Below, one piece after another: positions 1,073 to 9,539 of a stretch of DNA of 19,179 bases (positions within the stretch are counted from its first letter, which is position 1; every line of letters starts with the position of its first letter). Made by a program: the position numbers and the translations under genes. Source of the stretch: Candidatus Thorarchaeota archaeon (lineage in GTDB: Archaea; Asgardarchaeota; Thorarchaeia; Thorarchaeales; Thorarchaeaceae); the NCBI GenBank assembly GCA_016839445.1, contig JAEOUG010000071.1:1-19179 (forward strand), given 5' to 3'. The notes under the pieces are model-generated. The model did no database searches. It had not been told where the DNA came from and saw only the letters and a program-made list of their open reading frames with translations.

Positions 1073-2863
1073 TTGAGTCAACCGATGAACGTTCACATCA
1101 GGGTCGAGAAGAAGAGGATAGGCTCATTCTATACTCCACTAGACCTTGCTGGTCTTATCACAAAGGAAACGCTCTGTTCATGGCTCTCGAACACAACTGG
1201 GGAGGAGATTCGCGATGCTGACGAGCTGGCGACTCTATCACCTCGCAACAAAGAAGATTTCCTCTCTGACGTGCGGTCAGTGAAGATTCTGGACCCTGCA
1301 GCAGGAGACGGGGCCTTCCTGCTTGAAGCAGCCAAGTGGCTAGATGATGTCCGTTCAGCATTGGGAGATCCTCTGGAGGCTCCAGAGAGGAGGGCAGAGA
1401 TAGTTGAGCACTGTCTCTATGGAGTAGATGTTGTGCCTGAAGCGGTATCAGACTGCCGAGAAACGCTATGCTCATGGGCCACAGACGTAGGCCCCACACA
1501 TGCCTTGCCCGCGCCTAACGTCCTTTGCGGCAACTCCCTGGTGGGCCGAATCGGGCTGGGGAAGCCTGGGCCACATGAGGAGAGAGTCGCTGATGCCTTC
1601 CACTGGGCACGAGAGTTTCCTGAAATCATCGTGGAAAACGGCGGGTTTGACATCATCCTCGGAAATCCACCGTACGGGAACATACTCAGCCAGGACGAGA
1701 GGGATTACATAGCACAAACCTATACCACAAATGTCGGGGGCAACAGGGAGGGCACATGGAATGCCGCCGCACACTTCATCGTGAGAGCGAGTGCGCTCCT
1801 AACACCTAGCGGGACCTTCGGACTACTTGTGCCAAACAGCATTCTTAGGGTGACGCAATTCCAGAAGACCCGAAGATTCCTCATGAGCAAAGTCAACCTC
1901 TGGAAGATTATTGATGAGGCTAGTCCCTTCGATGATGTGACCCTAGAAATGGTCAGTCTCTTCGCGAGAAAGGACTTCACAAACTCAGACGAATCTGTCC
2001 AGGTCGAGTCCAGAAGGCCGGGCCAGCAGAGAAGTAATGCTGTTCCTCGGAGAGTGTTGAGTTCTTCCAGAATATTCCCGATATACCATGACGCGATCCA
2101 CGCAGAATTGATCTCGGTCGGCAAGAGAGAGCTGCTTACTGCGAAGAGAGGGAGAGACATTCCGAAGGGGCACGTTTCCAAGCAGAGGACATCAGTCTTC
2201 AGGATACCATACCTGACAAGTGGTCGCAGTGTGAAGAGGTACCGAGTAGATGAACACCACCTCCAATTCGCGGACGATTGGTTCCTTCAAGATGCAGCTC
2301 TTCGCTTCTCTTTTGAGAACGAGCTTCTGATCTCCACGAAGAACTACCCCTACCCCCGATGTGTTGTGAAGCCCCGAGGAGTAATCCACGGAGGCGGGAT
2401 AGTGAGAATCAGTGGACCTCCCGAGATGGACATCAGAGCACTGGGAATGATACTCAATTCGGAACTTGTGCGGTTTGTGTCTGTTAGATACCTTACCAAC
2501 TACTCGGAACTCACGACCTGTCTAAACACAGGTATAATGAATGACCTGCCGCTAGTCTTGCCTGAAGAGCAGCCAGTCTTCCACTGTGTCTTCGACGCGC
2601 TATCCTCACTTCACTCAACTCCAGATGTCGACACCCGTGTGGTCCAGTTCTTTGAGAGGCTGGGGAATGCGTTAACATACGATCTATTCTTTGGCGAGCA
2701 GGAGCTGCAGGCCGCAGTGAAGGATTGCCTTGATGGCATAAATCCCGCATCTGACACTCCGAGCGCCATCTATGATCAGCTAGGAACCCAAGAGATTGCG
2801 CAGCGAATCGGCGTGGTAATGAGGTCGGACTTGGTTAGAACCATCAGGAAGCATCTCAATTGA
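1073..2863 (+). CDS. N6-adenine DNA methyltransferase, gamma class (Eco57I/TaqI-like) with C-terminal target-recognition region
   Basis: Motif X GSFYTP, SAM-binding motif I ILDPAAGDGAFL, LYGVD, GNSL, FHWxxEFPEI, catalytic motif IV GGFDIILGNPPYG; TTG start; 596 aa. Confidence 0.92.
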   Translation: MSQPMNVHIRVEKKRIGSFYTPLDLAGLITKETLCSWLSNTTGEEIRDADELATLSPRNKEDFLSDVRSVKILDPAAGDGAFLLEAAKWLDDVRSALGDPLEAPERRAEIVEHCLYGVDVVPEAVSDCRETLCSWATDVGPTHALPAPNVLCGNSLVGRIGLGKPGPHEERVADAFHWAREFPEIIVENGGFDIILGNPPYGNILSQDERDYIAQTYTTNVGGNREGTWNAAAHFIVRASALLTPSGTFGLLVPNSILRVTQFQKTRRFLMSKVNLWKIIDEASPFDDVTLEMVSLFARKDFTNSDESVQVESRRPGQQRSNAVPRRVLSSSRIFPIYHDAIHAELISVGKRELLTAKRGRDIPKGHVSKQRTSVFRIPYLTSGRSVKRYRVDEHHLQFADDWFLQDAALRFSFENELLISTKNYPYPRCVVKPRGVIHGGGIVRISGPPEMDIRALGMILNSELVRFVSVRYLTNYSELTTCLNTGIMNDLPLVLPEEQPVFHCVFDALSSLHSTPDVDTRVVQFFERLGNALTYDLFFGEQELQAAVKDCLDGINPASDTPSAIYDQLGTQEIAQRIGVVMRSDLVRTIRKHLN

Positions 2864-5782: not shown

Positions 5783-7414
5783 TTGAGTAACGTACCGGTG
5801 ATTGTTCTAAAGGAAGACACCGAGAGAACACGCGGCCGCGATGCACAACGCAACAACATCATGGCCGGAATCGTCATTGCCGAGGCAGTGAAGTCAGCAC
5901 TTGGGCCTAAGGGCATGGATAAGATGCTAGTGGATGGCTTCGGTGACATAACAGTGAGCAACGATGGAGCCACCATTCTGAAAGAGATGGATGTAGCCCA
6001 TCCCGCAGCGAAGATGGTCATCGAGGTCTCAAAGACTGTAGATGATGAGGTCGGAGACGGTACCACTACTGCTGCAGTCCTGACCGGAGACCTGCTTAAG
6101 CAGGCAGAGACACTTCTGGACCAGCACATACATCCTACGACCATCATCAGTGGCTACAGAAAGGCCACAGAGAAGGCTCTGGATGTCATTGAGAAGGTGG
6201 CTGAGAAGGTCGATCCAGCTTCAAGCGATTACAAGAAGATACTCATCGATGTGGCGAAGACATCCATGTCGAGCAAGTTCGTATCTGGGTCTCGCGACTC
6301 GCTGGCAAAGACAGTGGTCGAGGCAGTGCTAGCGATCAACAAGGATTTGGCTGCTGACGAGGAGCTCTCCATAGAGAACATCCCACGCCAGAAGCAGGTC
6401 GGAATGTCAGTTGACAGGACAGAGCTCGTCAAGGGTCTCGTTCTAGACAAAGAGGTCGTTCACGCAGGAATGCCGAAGAAGGTCCAGGGCGCGAAGATTG
6501 CCCTCCTTGAGGCTGCACTGGAAGTGACAAAGACAGAATTCGATGCTAAGATCTCCATCAGTGACCCGAGCTCAATGCAGAGCTTCCTCGATGAGGAAGA
6601 GCGCATGCTCAAGAACATGGTTGACAAGATCGTCGAGGCCGGAGCGAACGTTGTCATAGCCCAGAAGGGCATAGACGATGTCGTTCAGCACTACCTTGCG
6701 AAGCATGGAATACTCGCGGTCAGAAGGATCAAGAAGTCAGATGTGGAGAGAGTCCACAAGACCACAGGCGCCGCTATTGTTTCCAAGATTCAGAACCTGT
6801 CAGCAGATGACCTTGGAAAGGCCAAGCTCGTAGAGCAGCGCCAAGTTGGGGATGACAAGATGCTCTTCATAGAGGGCACACCGAAGTCAAGCGTTGTCAC
6901 ACTCCTAGTGAGGGGCGGTACGGACCACATTGTAGACGAAGTAGACAGAGCTCTCAATGATGCTCTTCACGTCGTCAAGGACGTCGTAGTGCACCCCTAC
7001 GTCACATACGGTGGCGGAGCACTCGCATCAGAGATCTCATACCGTCTGCGGGAGTACGCCTCCAAGTTGGAGGGACGCGAGCAGTATGCCGTGAATGCCT
7101 TTGCGGATGCAGTTGAGTCCCTACCGACAACTTTAGCAGAGAATGCAGGTCTCGACCCAATCGACGTAATCGTCGGTCTCAGGAAGGCCCATTCTGACGG
7201 TCTCGTCACCCACGGTCTTAACATCGACTCGGGCAAGCCCGATGATATGAAGAAGGCCAAGGTAGTCGAGTCCGCTCTTGTGAACCGCCAGATTGTCATG
7301 TCAGCGGCTGAGGCTGCTCAGATGATTCTCAAGATTGATGACGTCATCAGCGTTAAGGGCGGTCCAGGTATGGGCGGCGGACCTGAAGGCGACTTCGGCG
7401 GAGACGACGAGTAA
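5783..7414 (+). CDS. ths: Thermosome subunit (group II chaperonin)
   Basis: [58 protein letters not shown] tail; 543 aa. Confidence 0.98.
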
Positions 7415-7454
7415 ACAGAAAGAGTCAAACGTGAAACGGGTCGTGGAAATCAAC

Positions 7455-8117
7455 ATGTCAGAAGGCTCCAAAGACAAAGACAATGAGAAGGCCGACCTCT
7501 CCGAGGAGGAGAAGGTGGCACGGCTGGGCAACATCCCAGGAGTCGGTCCAAAGACAGGCGAGAAACTGGTGGCTGCAGGGTTTGATACTCTGGACAAGAT
7601 CGCTGAGGCGGACAACGAGATGCTCGCTGAGGCTGTGCCGGGGCTCAGCCCATCCAAGGCCGAGACTGTGATTGAAGAAACGGAGAAGGTCTTGGAGGCA
7701 GTCAAGGCAGGAGAGATAGACCTGGATGGGAAGTCCAAGTCGAAGAGGAAGAAACCACCCGAACCGGAGCCTGACATCCATAAGATGCCCTCAATCGAGG
7801 CCGTAGAGAGAGCAGAAGAGAGGACCAGACTCGTCACTGGCTACGAGGAAGAGAACCTCAAGATGGGAGTGCCTGTCGGCCCAAGGTGGTTGACCAAGTT
7901 CGAGAAAGCGCGCATCATCGGGGCTAGAGCTCTGCAGATTTCGATGGGAGCACCAGTACTTGTCGACACAAAGAAGGCTCCAGAGGGGCGCTTCGGTTTT
8001 GCCGAGGCAGAACTGAAGGCGGACGTCTTGCCTATGACCGTTCGGCGCACTCTCCCTTCGGGAGAGAGCTTTGACATCGCGTTGACCAATCTTCTCAAGC
8101 ATACGAGGCTGGACTAA
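7455..8117 (+). CDS. rpoK: DNA-directed RNA polymerase subunit Rpo6 (K/omega/Rpb6) with an N-terminal tandem helix-hairpin-helix domain
   Basis: C-terminal [22 protein letters not shown]...AEAEL...[12 protein letters not shown] is the Rpo6 signature; N-terminal [12 protein letters not shown]...[10 protein letters not shown] is a tandem HhH. ATG 7455 gives 220 aa and avoids overlap with the thermosome gene. Confidence 0.93.
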
Positions 8118-8195: not shown

Positions 8196-9539
8196 ATGTC
8201 GTCTCCGGTGGTCCAAGTCATGCAAGCCCTTCTTCCAGATGCCGAACTGATTGTGAGGATAATTCTAGGATTCACAGTGGGTGCCCTGATAGGGCTTGAG
8301 AGACAGAAGAAGATGACCACCGACACAGTTCTGGGTGTAAGATCATTCGGACTTCACAGCCTCTTCGGAGCACTTGCTGCCTACTCCACCGTAGTGACTG
8401 GGAATGAAATCATTCTGATCTACGCTGCCATCATTTCTGGAGCAATTGTCACCGCTCAGATGTACTACAAGCTTTTCCGAGCAATGGGAAGAGGTCTGAC
8501 TACTACCATTGCCTTCGCATTGTCTTTTGTCTTGGGCACACTAGTTGGGTTCGCGAATCCTCCGCCAGGGCAGCTTCTTGGGCCTCTGGAGGTTCTTGCA
8601 GTGACGATCTCGTTTGTAGTGTTTCTAGTGCTCGGCTTCAAGGAGGAATTGGCACATGCTGTCGAGGTGATCACACGTGAGGAGATGGTCAGTGCAGTTG
8701 AACTCGCTGTCATAATCCTACTATTCTGGCCTCTGATACCAGCGACAATCACCGTTGGTCCAATCGAGTTCCCGTTGTTCCAGACCTACCTTCTGATTGT
8801 CATCCTCTTGTCAGTGAGTTTCGTGAACTACCTGCTTGTGAAGAAGTACCGGGATAAAGGAGTGCTCTTCTTCGGCTTCTTCGGAGGTCTCGCAAACAGT
8901 GAGGCGACTGTCTCAAGTGTGACAGACTTCTACGTGAATGCAGACAGGAAGGGAGTCAGCAGGATTTCACTGTCCGTGCTCCTGGCGAATCTTGCCATGG
9001 TTCTTCGGAATGGAATCCTCTTGGTGCTGGTAGACACTACGTTCCAGCTCTTCCAGCTCTATTTGGTGCCAATCGTGATCCTAGTCATTGCTAGCGTCAT
9101 GAGGATGGTCTACGAGGCTCAGAAGGAGCACGTCCCAGGGAATCTCTACGACGCGAAGTTCTCTTCACCCTTCGAGTTTGGGGCAGCTCTGCGATTCGGT
9201 GCAATCTTTGGTTTGGTATACTTCATCCAGCTGTTTCTCACTCAGACCTTCAGCGAGGCCGGCGTGCTGGTTGCTGCGCTGATAGGCGGCTTTGTCTCGG
9301 CAGGGGCAGTAGTAGCAGGGTCCGCGGCGCTGTTCTACGGAGGGTCTCTGACACTTGGAGCAGCCCTTGGCTCTGTCCTGCTGGCAACTGCCATGTCCAT
9401 CCTCAACAAGACGGTCTACGTGTACCTTGCAGATAGAGAATCCGGCCTCCTGAAACGCGTGGCGAGGGATTCCATCTTTGTGGCCGTAGTCCTCCTAGCA
9501 TACTTCGCCCTCATTGCCATGGGACTGATTGCACTCTAA
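8196..9539 (+). CDS. MgtC/SapB N-terminal + DUF4010 multi-pass membrane protein
   Basis: GALIGLERQ, GVRSF, GLTT (MgtC-like), GFFGGLANSEA, SPFEF..AL.FG, GGFVS; highly hydrophobic, 447 aa. TTAAAA at 8175-8180 upstream. Confidence 0.88.
   Translation: MSSPVVQVMQALLPDAELIVRIILGFTVGALIGLERQKKMTTDTVLGVRSFGLHSLFGALAAYSTVVTGNEIILIYAAIISGAIVTAQMYYKLFRAMGRGLTTTIAFALSFVLGTLVGFANPPPGQLLGPLEVLAVTISFVVFLVLGFKEELAHAVEVITREEMVSAVELAVIILLFWPLIPATITVGPIEFPLFQTYLLIVILLSVSFVNYLLVKKYRDKGVLFFGFFGGLANSEATVSSVTDFYVNADRKGVSRISLSVLLANLAMVLRNGILLVLVDTTFQLFQLYLVPIVILVIASVMRMVYEAQKEHVPGNLYDAKFSSPFEFGAALRFGAIFGLVYFIQLFLTQTFSEAGVLVAALIGGFVSAGAVVAGSAALFYGGSLTLGAALGSVLLATAMSILNKTVYVYLADRESGLLKRVARDSIFVAVVLLAYFALIAMGLIAL

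What the first reader, a model, noticed from the sequence alone, without database searches (positions are those of the whole stretch)
7455..8117. RNA polymerase subunit Rpo6 fused to a tethered tandem HhH domain
Seen: one uninterrupted 220-aa ORF with an acidic start, a tandem HhH ([44 protein letters not shown], about 7524-7700), a Lys/Arg- then Pro-rich linker, and an intact Rpo6 core only in the last ~75 aa. Established: characterised archaeal Rpo6 proteins are small single-domain subunits; eukaryotic Rpb6 has a disordered N-terminal tail; HhH-type folds form the bacterial RNAP alpha-CTD, the NusA acidic repeats and the RadA/Rad51 N-terminal domain. Inference: this polymerase carries a flexibly tethered DNA- or factor-binding module, functionally analogous to alpha-CTD (upstream DNA contact, activator target, or repair/ribosome coupling). 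I do not know of a description of this architecture, but I cannot search for one.
Basis: partly seen in the sequence, partly recalled or inferred. Interest (0 to 1): 0.8.

Follow-up and report, generated by a model that had tools for sequence, protein, structure and literature searches.

The report
RNA polymerase subunit with HhH domain
In one family of Asgard (Thor) archaea the small RNA-polymerase subunit Rpo6 carries an extra, strongly conserved helix-hairpin-helix module that probably gives the enzyme an additional grip on nucleic acid; the fusion is real, but it has already been mentioned briefly in print and has never been tested.

Summary
Window 7455-8117 (+) is one 220-aa gene. It has an acidic tail, an HHH_5-type (HhH)2 domain (residues 17-85), a conserved basic and Pro/Glu linker (86-128) and an Rpb6-like core (129-220). 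It is the only Rpo6 found in this 89.8%-complete genome.

The fusion is not an artefact:
- 80 of 86 genomes of the window's own family carry it, against 0 of 314 other Asgard genomes.
- The HhH part is under purifying selection (dN/dS 0.01-0.18).
- Relatives have an AGGTG ribosome-binding site before the first ATG.
- A contig from another study's sequencing run bridges HhH, linker and core.

The sister family has only an acidic tail at the same locus.

The cassette most resembles HhH modules attached to ribosomal proteins L32e and S25e and to topoisomerase VI-A. A second Asgard group carries HhH modules, or Lys/Ala tails, on the C-terminus of Rpo6. This convergence favours a tethered, sequence-independent nucleic-acid contact, which is inferred and untested. 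The linker's fixed length and conservation argue against a purely floppy tether.

A 2026 paper already notes the Thorarchaeota fusion in one sentence, calling it a "helix-loop-helix" fragment. My verdict is a real, moderately interesting new variant of a known kind that is not unpublished.

The parts
7455..8117 (+). Whole rpoK/rpo6 gene (220 codons plus stop), encoding the HhH-Rpo6 fusion protein P0001
   Evidence: ORF and translation. Domain hits. Full-length orthologues in 80 of 86 family genomes.
7455..7502 (+). Acidic, poorly conserved N-terminal tail (residues 1-16)
   Evidence: pLDDT below 50 for residues 1-14. Mean charge -4.6 and variable length of 16-47 aa across 73 sequences. dN/dS 0.16-0.54.
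7503..7709 (+). (HhH)2 domain of HHH_5 type: five helices, residues 17-85
   Evidence: Pfam HHH_5 over residues 24-76. AF2 helices at 17-24, 32-41, 46-51, 54-60 and 66-84. Foldseek match to the RadA N-terminal domain, 56-57 columns at rmsd 1.0. Always 69 aa; invariant G31 P32 K33 K37 G63 S65 K68. dN/dS 0.01-0.18.
7710..7757 (+). Basic patch of the linker (residues 86-101, includes KSKSKRKK)
   Evidence: Mean charge +4.7 and length 14-17 aa. K97 R98 K100 invariant. pLDDT below 50 at 92-96. The same acidic-HhH-then-KKKRK arrangement occurs in L32e-linked modules.
7758..7838 (+). Pro/Glu-rich segment and pre-core segment (residues 102-128)
   Evidence: Always 27 aa in 73 sequences. E103 P104 P106 R123 L126 invariant. 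The script's linker window (residues 86-116) has dN/dS 0.03-0.28. Mostly coil with a short helix at 114-118.
7839..8114 (+). Rpo6/Rpb6 core (residues 129-220)
   Evidence: NF002207 over residues 132-219 at 88.2 bits. PDB Rpo6/Rpb6 matches. pLDDT about 90. Foldseek TM (target) 0.8-0.9 at rmsd 1.5-1.9 to Rpb6 chains.
7415..7454 (+). 40-nt spacer between the thermosome gene and rpoK. It holds a conserved 13-mer at 7419-7431. No AT-rich box is evident to my eye, and no promoter scan was run.
   Evidence: Upstream sequences aligned at the ATG. The 13-mer is exact in 21 of 47 loci and unique in the genome. An RNA-library contig spans 7238-7494.
5783..7414 (+). Upstream thermosome (Cpn60/TCP-1) gene, a conserved neighbour on the same strand
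   Evidence: Pfam PF00118. Synteny thermosome-rpoK-MgtC/DUF4010 holds in the family and in the sister family.
8196..9539 (+). Downstream MgtC/DUF4010 membrane protein gene, a conserved neighbour
   Evidence: Pfam. Synteny.

Best explanation
This is the single Rpo6 (RpoK) gene of a Thorarchaeota-type Asgard archaeon. It is translated from ATG 7455 as one 220-aa protein.

In the ancestor of one family, a cassette was inserted between an older acidic N-terminal tail and the Rpb6-like core. The cassette is an acidic HHH_5-type (HhH)2 domain followed by a Lys-rich patch and a fixed-length Pro/Glu segment.

The core assembles into RNA polymerase as in other archaea and eukaryotes (inferred from homology). 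The cassette most likely gives the polymerase an extra, sequence-independent contact with nucleic acid outside the main channel. The hairpin lysines and the adjacent KSKRKK patch would contact the phosphate backbone, most plausibly of duplex DNA up- or downstream of the enzyme. It would act as a built-in tether that raises DNA affinity or processivity (inferred, not shown).

The conserved linker probably runs along the enzyme surface and places the domain, rather than acting as a free string (inferred).
For: SHOWN
- Gene reality. The architecture is confirmed. It is the only Rpo6 found in the genome.
- Distribution. Full-length orthologues occur in 80 of 86 family genomes and 0 of 314 other Asgard genomes. 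In the sample of family genomes at least 85% complete, 45 of 46 match.
- Selection. dN/dS of the HhH part is 0.01-0.18, as low as the core at 0.02-0.28.
- Start. All 27 full-length genes found start at a conserved ATG. (A)GGTG precedes that ATG in 31 of 33 distinct genes.
- Assembly. A DNA contig from another study bridges HhH, linker and core.
- Conserved positions. The invariant residues are the hairpin Gly and the Lys just after each hairpin (G31 P32 K33 K37 G63 S65 K68), plus K97 R98 K100 in the linker.

FOR A NUCLEIC-ACID ROLE
- The nearest relatives of the module are HhH modules on L32e (41-48% identity), S25e and topoisomerase VI-A, all nucleic-acid machines. The genome's own RadA N-domain is more distant.
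- The L32e modules show the same acidic-HhH-plus-KKKRK unit.
- There is an independent, reversed fusion: an Rpo6 core with 1-2 C-terminal HHH_5 modules in six 90%-identity clusters and in genome G049 of another Asgard family. Their closest core relatives carry a (PAKKAAKK)n tail instead.
- Other Rpo6 proteins have Lys-rich N-tails.
- Topoisomerase V (HhH)2 domains contact only the DNA backbone (PMC9489208, passages).
Against: - No binding assay exists.
- The HhH domain itself is acidic: mean net charge -5.6 across 73 sequences and -7 in this protein. That also fits a protein-binding HhH.
- The invariant length and sequence of the linker suggest specific protein contacts.
- The published AlphaFold3 model reports extra Rpo6-Rpo5 and Rpo6-RID contacts (PMC13257274).
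- The model gives no fixed position for the domain relative to the core (pTM 0.42).
- Where the Rpo6 N-terminus lies relative to DNA could not be measured here.
- This genome itself lacks the canonical AGGTG before the ATG.
Confidence: 0.55

Rival explanations
1. Factor-docking hub. The acidic HhH domain and tail bind a protein partner, such as an initiation, elongation, repair or chromatin factor. This would work as the acidic N-terminal tail of eukaryotic RPB6 binds the PH domain of TFIIH p62, or as acidic HhH repeats of NusA bind proteins (the NusA comparison is recalled).
For: The domain has net charge -5.6 and the N-tail -4.6. The sister family has only an acidic, presumably disordered tail at the same locus, so an acidic interaction tail looks ancestral. 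RPB6 NTT binding to p62 is shown in PMC8754651 (abstract and passages).
Against: The invariant positions are the phosphate-facing hairpin Gly and Lys, and a Lys/Arg patch follows the domain. Convergent lineages attach plainly basic tails or further HhH modules to Rpo6. No candidate partner was identified.
Confidence: 0.22
2. Structural strap. [quoted passage not shown] They would stabilise or remodel that region rather than reach for DNA. This is the reading of the 2026 paper.
For: Linker length is invariant (27 aa for residues 102-128; 14-17 aa for 86-101) and its sequence is highly conserved. AlphaFold3 contacts are reported in PMC13257274 section 2.2.2 and the Figure 8 legend.
Against: Relatives exist in which the whole HhH-plus-linker cassette is duplicated in tandem (P0006 and P0007, 320-325 aa). 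That is hard to fit on one fixed docking site. The same kind of module is attached at the opposite terminus of Rpo6 in another lineage. pLDDT of the linker is 50-70 with no predicted packing.
Confidence: 0.15
3. Autoinhibitory DNA mimic. The acidic HhH domain occupies a DNA-binding surface of the free enzyme and is displaced on promoter binding.
For: Only the acidic net charge of the domain and tail.
Against: There is no positive evidence. The conserved hairpin lysines and basic patch and the convergent basic tails point the other way.
Confidence: 0.05
4. Artefact. The long ORF would be a gene-call or assembly fusion, or only a short Rpo6 is made from an internal Met.
For: This genome lacks a canonical SD before ATG 7455. 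The position of M136 is a start codon in 25 of 33 genes. Expression evidence is limited to one 258-nt contig in an RNA library covering 7238-7494.
Against: 80 of 86 family genomes have the same open frame. dN/dS of the HhH part is 0.01-0.18. In many relatives a stop codon lies 1-5 codons upstream of the conserved ATG. AGGTG precedes the first ATG in 31 of 33 genes, against an SD-like motif before the internal position in 6 of 25. A contig from another study's run bridges the junction.
Confidence: 0.03

Closest known systems
Archaeal Rpo6 (RpoK) / eukaryotic Rpb6 (RPABC2) / bacterial omega
   Same: The C-terminal 92 residues are a bona fide member. They score above the NCBIfam equivalog cut-off. 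The predicted fold superposes on Rpb6 chains at rmsd 1.5-1.9 over 74-78 residues. It is the only copy found in the genome.
   Different: Solved archaeal Rpo6 chains are 57-95 aa with a single domain. This protein has 128 extra N-terminal residues that include a folded domain.
Eukaryotic Rpb6 N-terminal tail (binds the TFIIH p62 PH domain; PMC8754651)
   Same: It is an N-terminal extension on the same subunit, and it is acidic. The sister Thor family has a purely acidic tail of about 75 aa at the orthologous locus.
   Different: The eukaryotic tail is disordered. Here a folded (HhH)2 domain and a basic patch are inserted. No sequence similarity between the tails was shown.
Bacterial RNA polymerase alpha C-terminal domain (PF03118)
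   Same: Functional analogy only: a small helical HhH-like domain joined by a linker to an assembly subunit of a multisubunit RNA polymerase. The fold relation is recalled knowledge, not tested here.
   Different: PF03118 does not appear among the Pfam hits of this protein at E up to 1. It sits on a different subunit and a different terminus. The linker here is conserved and of fixed length. Binding to DNA or to activators is untested.
RadA/Rad51 N-terminal (HhH)2 domain
   Same: It is the best solved structural match of the HhH part: 1xu4 and 2f1h, 56-57 columns, rmsd 1.0, 37-38% identity. 1pzn matches by sequence at E 7e-6.
   Different: There is no recombinase ATPase core. TIGR02236 scores 31.5 bits against a cut-off of 361 and matches only model positions 2-58. 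The genome's own RadA N-domain is a weaker match (34.7 bits) than the L32e, S25e and Top6A modules.
HHH_5 modules decorating ribosomal proteins L32e and S25e and topoisomerase VI-A; Topo V (HhH)2 repeats
   Same: These are the closest sequence relatives of the cassette. Some L32e-linked modules have the same acidic-HhH-plus-KKKRK unit. Haloarcula L32e with an N-terminal HhH is in the PDB. Topo V (HhH)2 domains contact only the DNA backbone (PMC9489208).
   Different: The host protein is RNA polymerase, and Thor Rpo6 usually carries a single module.
Engineered polymerases with tethered non-specific DNA-binding domains (Sso7d-T7 RNAP, PMC12630135; HhH-Phi29 polymerase, PMC8313265)
   Same: The design principle matches: an N-terminal dsDNA-binding domain plus a linker of about 30-50 aa on a polymerase. 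The reported outcomes were salt tolerance and processivity (passages; listing only for the Phi29 paper).
   Different: Those are artificial, single-subunit enzymes. The single Topo V HhH motif tried on T7 RNAP did not give the salt tolerance seen with Sso7d.

Membership tests
Rpo6/RpoK/Rpb6 (PF01192; NCBIfam NF002207) | Match to the curated family model above its cut-off | tested here: met
   NF002207 scores 88.2 bits against 71 and NF002208 scores 76.1 against 57. PF01192 scores 24.7 bits against 26 in hmmscan and 26.6 bits in the genome search.
Rpo6/RpoK/Rpb6 (PF01192; NCBIfam NF002207) | Rpb6 fold of the core | tested here: met
   The AF2 core has pLDDT about 90. Foldseek against Rpb6 chains gives TM (target) 0.8-0.9 at rmsd 1.5-1.9, and against Sulfolobus Rpo6 rmsd 3.3-4.5.
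Rpo6/RpoK/Rpb6 (PF01192; NCBIfam NF002207) | It is the organism's Rpo6: sole copy at the orthologous locus | tested here: met
   One match in the 89.8%-complete genome with both the protein and the family model. Synteny is shared with the family and with the sister family.
Rpo6/RpoK/Rpb6 (PF01192; NCBIfam NF002207) | Assembles into RNA polymerase at the clamp base | not testable with these tools
   Inferred from homology only.
(HhH)2 domain, Pfam HHH_5 (PF14520) | Two HhH motifs with Gly-hydrophobic-Gly/Ser hairpins; family model above cut-off | tested here: met
   HHH_5 scores 53.5 bits against 27 over residues 24-76. G31 P32 K33 and G63 S65 K68 are invariant in 73 sequences.
(HhH)2 domain, Pfam HHH_5 (PF14520) | Five-helix fold | tested here: met
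   Five helices between residues 17 and 84, pLDDT 72-80. Rmsd 1.0 to the RadA N-domain over 56-57 columns.
(HhH)2 domain, Pfam HHH_5 (PF14520) | Sequence-independent binding to the nucleic-acid backbone | not testable with these tools
   The lysines after each hairpin are conserved, but the domain is acidic. No assay is available.
Bacterial RNAP alpha-CTD (PF03118) | Sequence membership in the family | tested here: not met
   PF03118 is absent from the Pfam list of P0001 at E up to 1.
Bacterial RNAP alpha-CTD (PF03118) | Flexible linker to an RNAP assembly subunit; binds upstream DNA and activators | tested here: inconclusive
   The linker is predicted as coil but has fixed length and is conserved. 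DNA or activator binding is not testable here.
RadA/Rad51 recombinase (TIGR02236) | RecA-type ATPase core | tested here: not met
   Only model positions 2-58 match, at 31.5 bits against a cut-off of 361.
Eukaryote-type Rpb6 with N-terminal tail | Acidic, disordered N-terminal extension | tested here: met
   pLDDT is below 50 for residues 1-14. The residue 1-16 region has mean charge -4.6. A folded domain follows it, which eukaryotic tails lack.
Eukaryote-type Rpb6 with N-terminal tail | Binds the TFIIH p62 PH domain | not tested
   No search for a p62-like partner was made.

The most novel reading that the evidence does not exclude
Rpo6 may be a recurrent attachment point for sequence-independent nucleic-acid-binding appendages in Asgard archaea. 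At least two independent HhH fusions exist: N-terminal in the Thor family, and C-terminal in a second family, where Lys/Ala tails are the alternative. The same acidic-HhH-plus-KKRK cassette sits on topoisomerase VI-A and on ribosomal proteins S25e and L32e. In this reading these lineages equip their polymerase, and other nucleic-acid machines, with a natural built-in tether. It would be the counterpart of engineered Sso7d/HhH polymerase chimeras, and it would increase DNA retention, processivity or salt tolerance, or anchor transcription, topology control and ribosomes to the same nucleic-acid scaffold.
Probability: 0.35. Interest if true: 0.65.

Novelty: new variant of a known kind. Interest (0 to 1): 0.5.

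Why it matters
Archaeal RNA polymerase is usually described as reaching promoter DNA through TBP, TFB and TFE, with small subunits as passive scaffolding. A family-wide, strongly selected nucleic-acid-type domain on Rpo6 suggests something different. So does a convergent fusion at the other end of the same subunit in a second Asgard lineage. Together they suggest that polymerases close to the eukaryotic stem experiment with built-in accessory contacts on the subunit whose eukaryotic homologue uses its N-terminal tail to recruit TFIIH.

The question is directly testable with recombinant protein: EMSA, reconstitution and cryo-EM. It would also give a natural precedent for the engineering trick of tethering DNA-binding domains to polymerases.

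The value is tempered in three ways. The Thor fusion has already been noted in print. The organisms are uncultured. The function is inferred only.

Tried and rejected
1. Complex prediction of Rpo5 (alignment A2, 22 rows) with Rpo6 residues 1-116 (alignment A1). The result was no verdict: score 0.30 against a mark of 0.32, and controls were not run. It counts neither for nor against docking.

As a result, source names for the L32e/Top6A HhH proteins, for P0006/P0007 and for the one 'Hodarchaeota'-labelled hit (P0114) could not be obtained. The genome survey found no fused form in 314 non-family Asgard genomes. I therefore treat that label as unresolved, possibly a binning or naming issue.

3. 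RNA evidence. Two RNA-library runs gave one contig each, at 7238-7494 and 7204-7360. These touch only the first 40 nt of the gene, and DNA carry-over cannot be excluded. The uncovered parts say nothing.

4. A possible second, unfused copy in G327 (a 90-aa frame). The matching record ends at a contig edge (L051), so this is truncation and not an unfused gene.

5. The six family genomes without a strong match.
- G323 has only a fragment at a contig edge. Its 40 C-terminal residues equal those of the fused 290-aa P0123.
- G340, G363 and G365 show no Rpo6 at all with NF002207.
- G354 and G380 (71% and 62% complete) were not followed up.

6. Origin from RadA. The genome's own RadA N-domain scores below the L32e, S25e and Top6A modules, so I rejected RadA as the direct donor.

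7. Internal translation start and misassembly were both rejected (see the rival explanations).

8. The first metagenome scan with P0135 alone found nothing. The permitted second scan, with alignment A3, found 5 loci.

9. My ORF-finding regex missed L014 and L016. They were therefore left out of the start-codon and dN/dS tables, though tblastn shows the gene in both. L024 is cut by its contig end and was counted as truncated.

10. Supplementary files of papers were not consulted because they are closed. Table S-type lists in PMC13257274 might hold further Rpo6 forms.
Full report
OBSERVATION

The window holds an uninterrupted ORF from ATG 7455 to the stop at 8115-8117, encoding 220 aa. The upstream thermosome gene ends at 7414. 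The only longer in-frame start (TTG 7335) would overlap it.

- Pfam finds HHH_5 at residues 24-76 (E 3.4e-14, 53.5 bits, cut-off 27).
- NCBIfam finds the RpoK equivalog NF002207 at residues 132-219 (88.2 bits, cut-off 71).
- Pfam RNA_pol_Rpb6 is borderline: 24.7 bits in hmmscan and 26.6 bits in the genome search, against a cut-off of 26.
- Against solved structures, the core matches archaeal Rpo6 chains of 57-95 aa and eukaryotic Rpb6. The N-terminal part matches the HhH domains of Rad51/RadA, topoisomerase V and Haloarcula L32e.

IS IT A REAL, TRANSLATED FUSION?

Yes.

- Copy number. The protein and the Rpb6 family model each find only this one Rpo6 in the window's genome, which is 2.9 Mb, 190 contigs and 89.8% complete.
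- Start codon. All 27 full-length genes my script found in related loci begin at an ATG with a conserved Met-Ser/Pro start. In many of them a stop codon lies 1-5 codons upstream. L014 and L016 were missed by my regex, and L024 is cut by its contig end.
- Ribosome-binding site. An (A)GGTG motif lies 5-9 nt before that ATG in 31 of 33 distinct genes. The two exceptions are this window itself and L033. The position aligned to internal M136 is a start codon in 25 of 33 genes, with an SD-like motif in only 6. M110 is Leu in the family consensus.
- Selection. Nei-Gojobori dN/dS was computed over 14 pairs. It is 0.01-0.18 for the HhH part (12 pairs with defined dS), 0.03-0.28 for the linker, 0.02-0.28 for the core and 0.16-0.54 for the extreme N-tail.
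- Assembly. A DNA contig from a different study covers 7584-8013 with one difference and bridges HhH, linker and core.
- Transcription. A 258-nt contig in an RNA library spans 7238-7494, from the thermosome 3' end into rpoK. This is compatible with co-transcription but does not prove it.

DISTRIBUTION

A six-frame search covered 400 genomes of the window's phylum.

- In the window's own family (f1), 80 of 86 genomes gave strong matches (E at most 4.8e-60). Nearly all cover the query from within its first 24 residues to residue 219 or 220.
- The other 314 genomes (32 families) gave none. Their best E-value is 5.4e-27, and every listed row from them covers residues 96-220 or less, in open frames of about 86-160 aa.
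- Of the six f1 genomes without a strong match, one has a contig-edge fragment, three have no detectable Rpo6 at all, and two incomplete ones were not followed up.
- An apparent core-only copy in G327 is a contig-end truncation.

Named records with the fusion are titled Candidatus Thorarchaeota, or generically Promethearchaeota or uncultured archaeon. Bathyarchaeia, Heimdall-, Hel-, Hermod- and Baldrarchaeota records match only the core. In a library of 1.84 billion representatives at 50% identity, only three other clusters match in one stretch across both domains.

The single genome of the sister family in the same order (G311) has a 151-153-aa Rpo6 with a strongly acidic N-tail and no HhH. 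It sits in the same thermosome-rpoK-MgtC/DUF4010 synteny. The simplest reading is insertion of the cassette into a pre-existing acidic tail in the f1 ancestor. Gain in the order followed by loss in f2 cannot be excluded from one genome.

ANATOMY

The analysis used 73 fused sequences, which I selected from the 120 proteins listed. P0006, P0007 and P0011 were left out because of their insertions.

- The HhH domain is always 69 aa, and segment 102-128 is always 27 aa.
- Mean net charges are -4.6 (N-tail), -5.6 (HhH), +4.7 (residues 86-101) and -3.4 (residues 102-128).
- Invariant residues are the hairpin G31 P32 K33 and K37, then G63 S65 K68, the linker K97 R98 K100 E103 P104 P106, and the pre-core R123 L126 G129.

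The AlphaFold2 model has mean pLDDT 76 and pTM 0.42. It gives five helices between residues 17 and 84 (pLDDT 72-80), mostly coil between 85 and 128 (pLDDT 50-70, below 50 at 92-96), and a confident core (about 90). Foldseek places the core on Rpb6 chains of Pol I/II/III (rmsd 1.5-1.9 over 74-78 residues). It places the HhH part on the M. voltae RadA N-domain (56-57 columns, rmsd 1.0).

The module is therefore tethered. The tether is conserved in length and sequence, which a purely flexible string would not need.

RELATIVES OF THE CASSETTE

In the same genome, HHH_5 modules also occur in three other proteins:
- at the C-terminus of an S25e ribosomal protein;
- twice at the N-terminus of topoisomerase VI subunit A;
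- at the C-terminus of a membrane protein.

The database holds L32e with up to four modules and Top6A with four to seven. In pairwise BLASTP the Rpo6 module is closest to the L32e-linked modules (41-48% identity). The own S25e module follows at 35% and own Top6A at 30%. The own RadA N-domain gives 32% identity but only 34.7 bits. Some L32e modules are acidic (-5 to -10) and are followed by KKKRK patches (+5 to +7), which is the same unit as in Rpo6. Two fused Rpo6 relatives (P0006 and P0007, 320-325 aa) carry the whole HhH-plus-linker cassette twice.

A SECOND, REVERSED FUSION

Among weaker hits I found Rpo6 proteins with the core at the N-terminus and one or two HHH_5 modules at the C-terminus. 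They form six clusters: P0135, P0272-P0275 and P0142.

- Their closest core relatives (P0276 and P0277, 78% identity over the core) carry a (PAKKAAKK)n tail instead.
- Other Rpo6 proteins have very Lys-rich N-tails (P0154, P0156).
- One such gene lies on a 9.4-kb metagenome contig (L153). The neighbouring RNase R is 55-61% identical to proteins named Heimdallarchaeota or Kariarchaeaceae.
- In the genome collection the nearest cores are in Asgard family f10. There, 1 of 12 genomes (G049) has core and HhH in one 191-aa frame, and the others are core-only.

The same subunit has thus acquired the same type of module independently at opposite ends, with plainly basic tails as alternatives.

MECHANISM

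Shown: a real, selected, family-wide fusion of an HHH_5 (HhH)2 domain and a basic patch to the organism's only detected Rpo6.

Inferred: the core assembles at the clamp base as in solved enzymes. The cassette provides an additional sequence-independent contact to a nucleic-acid backbone. This rests on the conserved hairpin Gly/Lys, the adjacent Lys/Arg patch, the nucleic-acid machines that carry sister modules, and the convergent HhH and Lys-tail fusions. It also rests on two precedents. Topoisomerase V (HhH)2 domains touch only the phosphate backbone (PMC9489208, passages). N-terminal tethering of a non-specific dsDNA-binding domain through a linker of about 30 aa made T7 RNA polymerase more salt-tolerant and processive (PMC12630135, passages).

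Against this reading, the domain is acidic and the linker looks like a specific strap. The published AlphaFold3 model proposes Rpo5 and RID contacts (PMC13257274).

My estimates are about 0.55 for the tether reading, 0.22 for a protein-docking hub, 0.15 for a docked structural strap, 0.05 for a DNA mimic and 0.03 for an artefact.

COMPARISON WITH THE LITERATURE

Full-text searches used three term sets: Asgard/Rpo6/helix-hairpin-helix, Asgard/RNA polymerase/Rpb6/fusion, and Thorarchaeota/RNA polymerase subunit/helix-hairpin-helix. They found one relevant paper, Shematorova and Shpakovski, Int J Mol Sci 2026;27:4679 (PMC13257274). I read the abstract, all of section 2.2 and the figure legends that the term search returned.

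- It proposes that this fragment stimulates transcription.
- It gives no distribution, selection or binding data.
- In the parts I read, it does not mention a C-terminal HhH form.

Okuda et al. (PMC8754651, passages) show that the RPB6 N-tail binds TFIIH p62. They remark that most archaeal RpoK proteins lack such a tail.

I made no separate search for the C-terminal variant beyond the searches above.

VERDICT

It is a new variant of a known kind: a small RNA-polymerase subunit with an accessory tethered domain. The fusion is confined to one Thorarchaeota family, already flagged in one sentence of a 2026 paper, and functionally untested.

- the family-level distribution and the sister-group state;
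- evidence of selection and of the translation start;
- the conserved fixed-length linker;
- the shared cassette with L32e, S25e and Top6A;
- a convergent reversed fusion in a second Asgard lineage.

Interest is moderate, at 0.5.

Noticed in passing
window 7419-7431 (spacer between the thermosome gene and rpoK): A 13-nt motif directly after the thermosome stop codon is conserved. It is exact in 21 of 47 related loci (some loci are duplicates from two collections) and occurs only once in this genome. No AT-rich promoter-like box is evident in the spacer by eye, so it may be an RNA processing or regulatory element of a thermosome-rpoK co-transcript.
   Followed up: partly
L003:1495-2484 (-), L004:1246-3246 (+), L002:49-1761 (+) (own genome, contigs C25, C43, C114): The same genome attaches HHH_5 modules to three other proteins. 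They are ribosomal protein S25e (C-terminal, after a long Lys-rich spacer), topoisomerase VI subunit A (two N-terminal modules) and a multi-pass membrane protein (C-terminal).
   Followed up: partly
L117:1171-1731 (+) = G000:C18:9511-10068; relatives L119, L121, L131, L140 and others: Rpo5 of this family is a 186-aa two-domain protein. It has an N-terminal restriction-endonuclease-like (Mrr_cat) domain plus Rpb5_C, reminiscent of full-length eukaryotic Rpb5. Eleven of the 29 sampled family genomes with a match carry two tandem copies.
   Followed up: partly
P0006, P0007 (relatives; 325 and 320 aa): These are fused Rpo6 proteins in which the entire HhH-plus-basic/Pro linker cassette is duplicated in tandem before the core.
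   Followed up: no
P0276, P0277, P0154, P0156; L155, L157: These are Rpo6 proteins with low-complexity basic appendages: C-terminal (PAKKAAKK)n tails, or N-terminal tails of about 45 mostly Lys residues.
   Followed up: partly
G052:C157:4677-4937 (536-aa open frame); P0239 (553 aa): An Rpo6 core lies at the end of a much longer open frame or protein. This may be another fusion or a read-through gene call. The N-terminal part was not examined.
   Followed up: no
window 7435-7454: This genome lacks the (A)GGTG ribosome-binding motif that 31 of 33 relatives have 5-9 nt before the rpoK start. The corresponding stretch is degenerate here.
   Followed up: no
window 1073-2863 (+): A 596-aa Eco57I-type N6 DNA methylase gene lies near the left end of the window. 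The other genes found are AAA_18, GNAT, ARMT1-like, HisRS, Memo and an MFS transporter, all ordinary.
   Followed up: no
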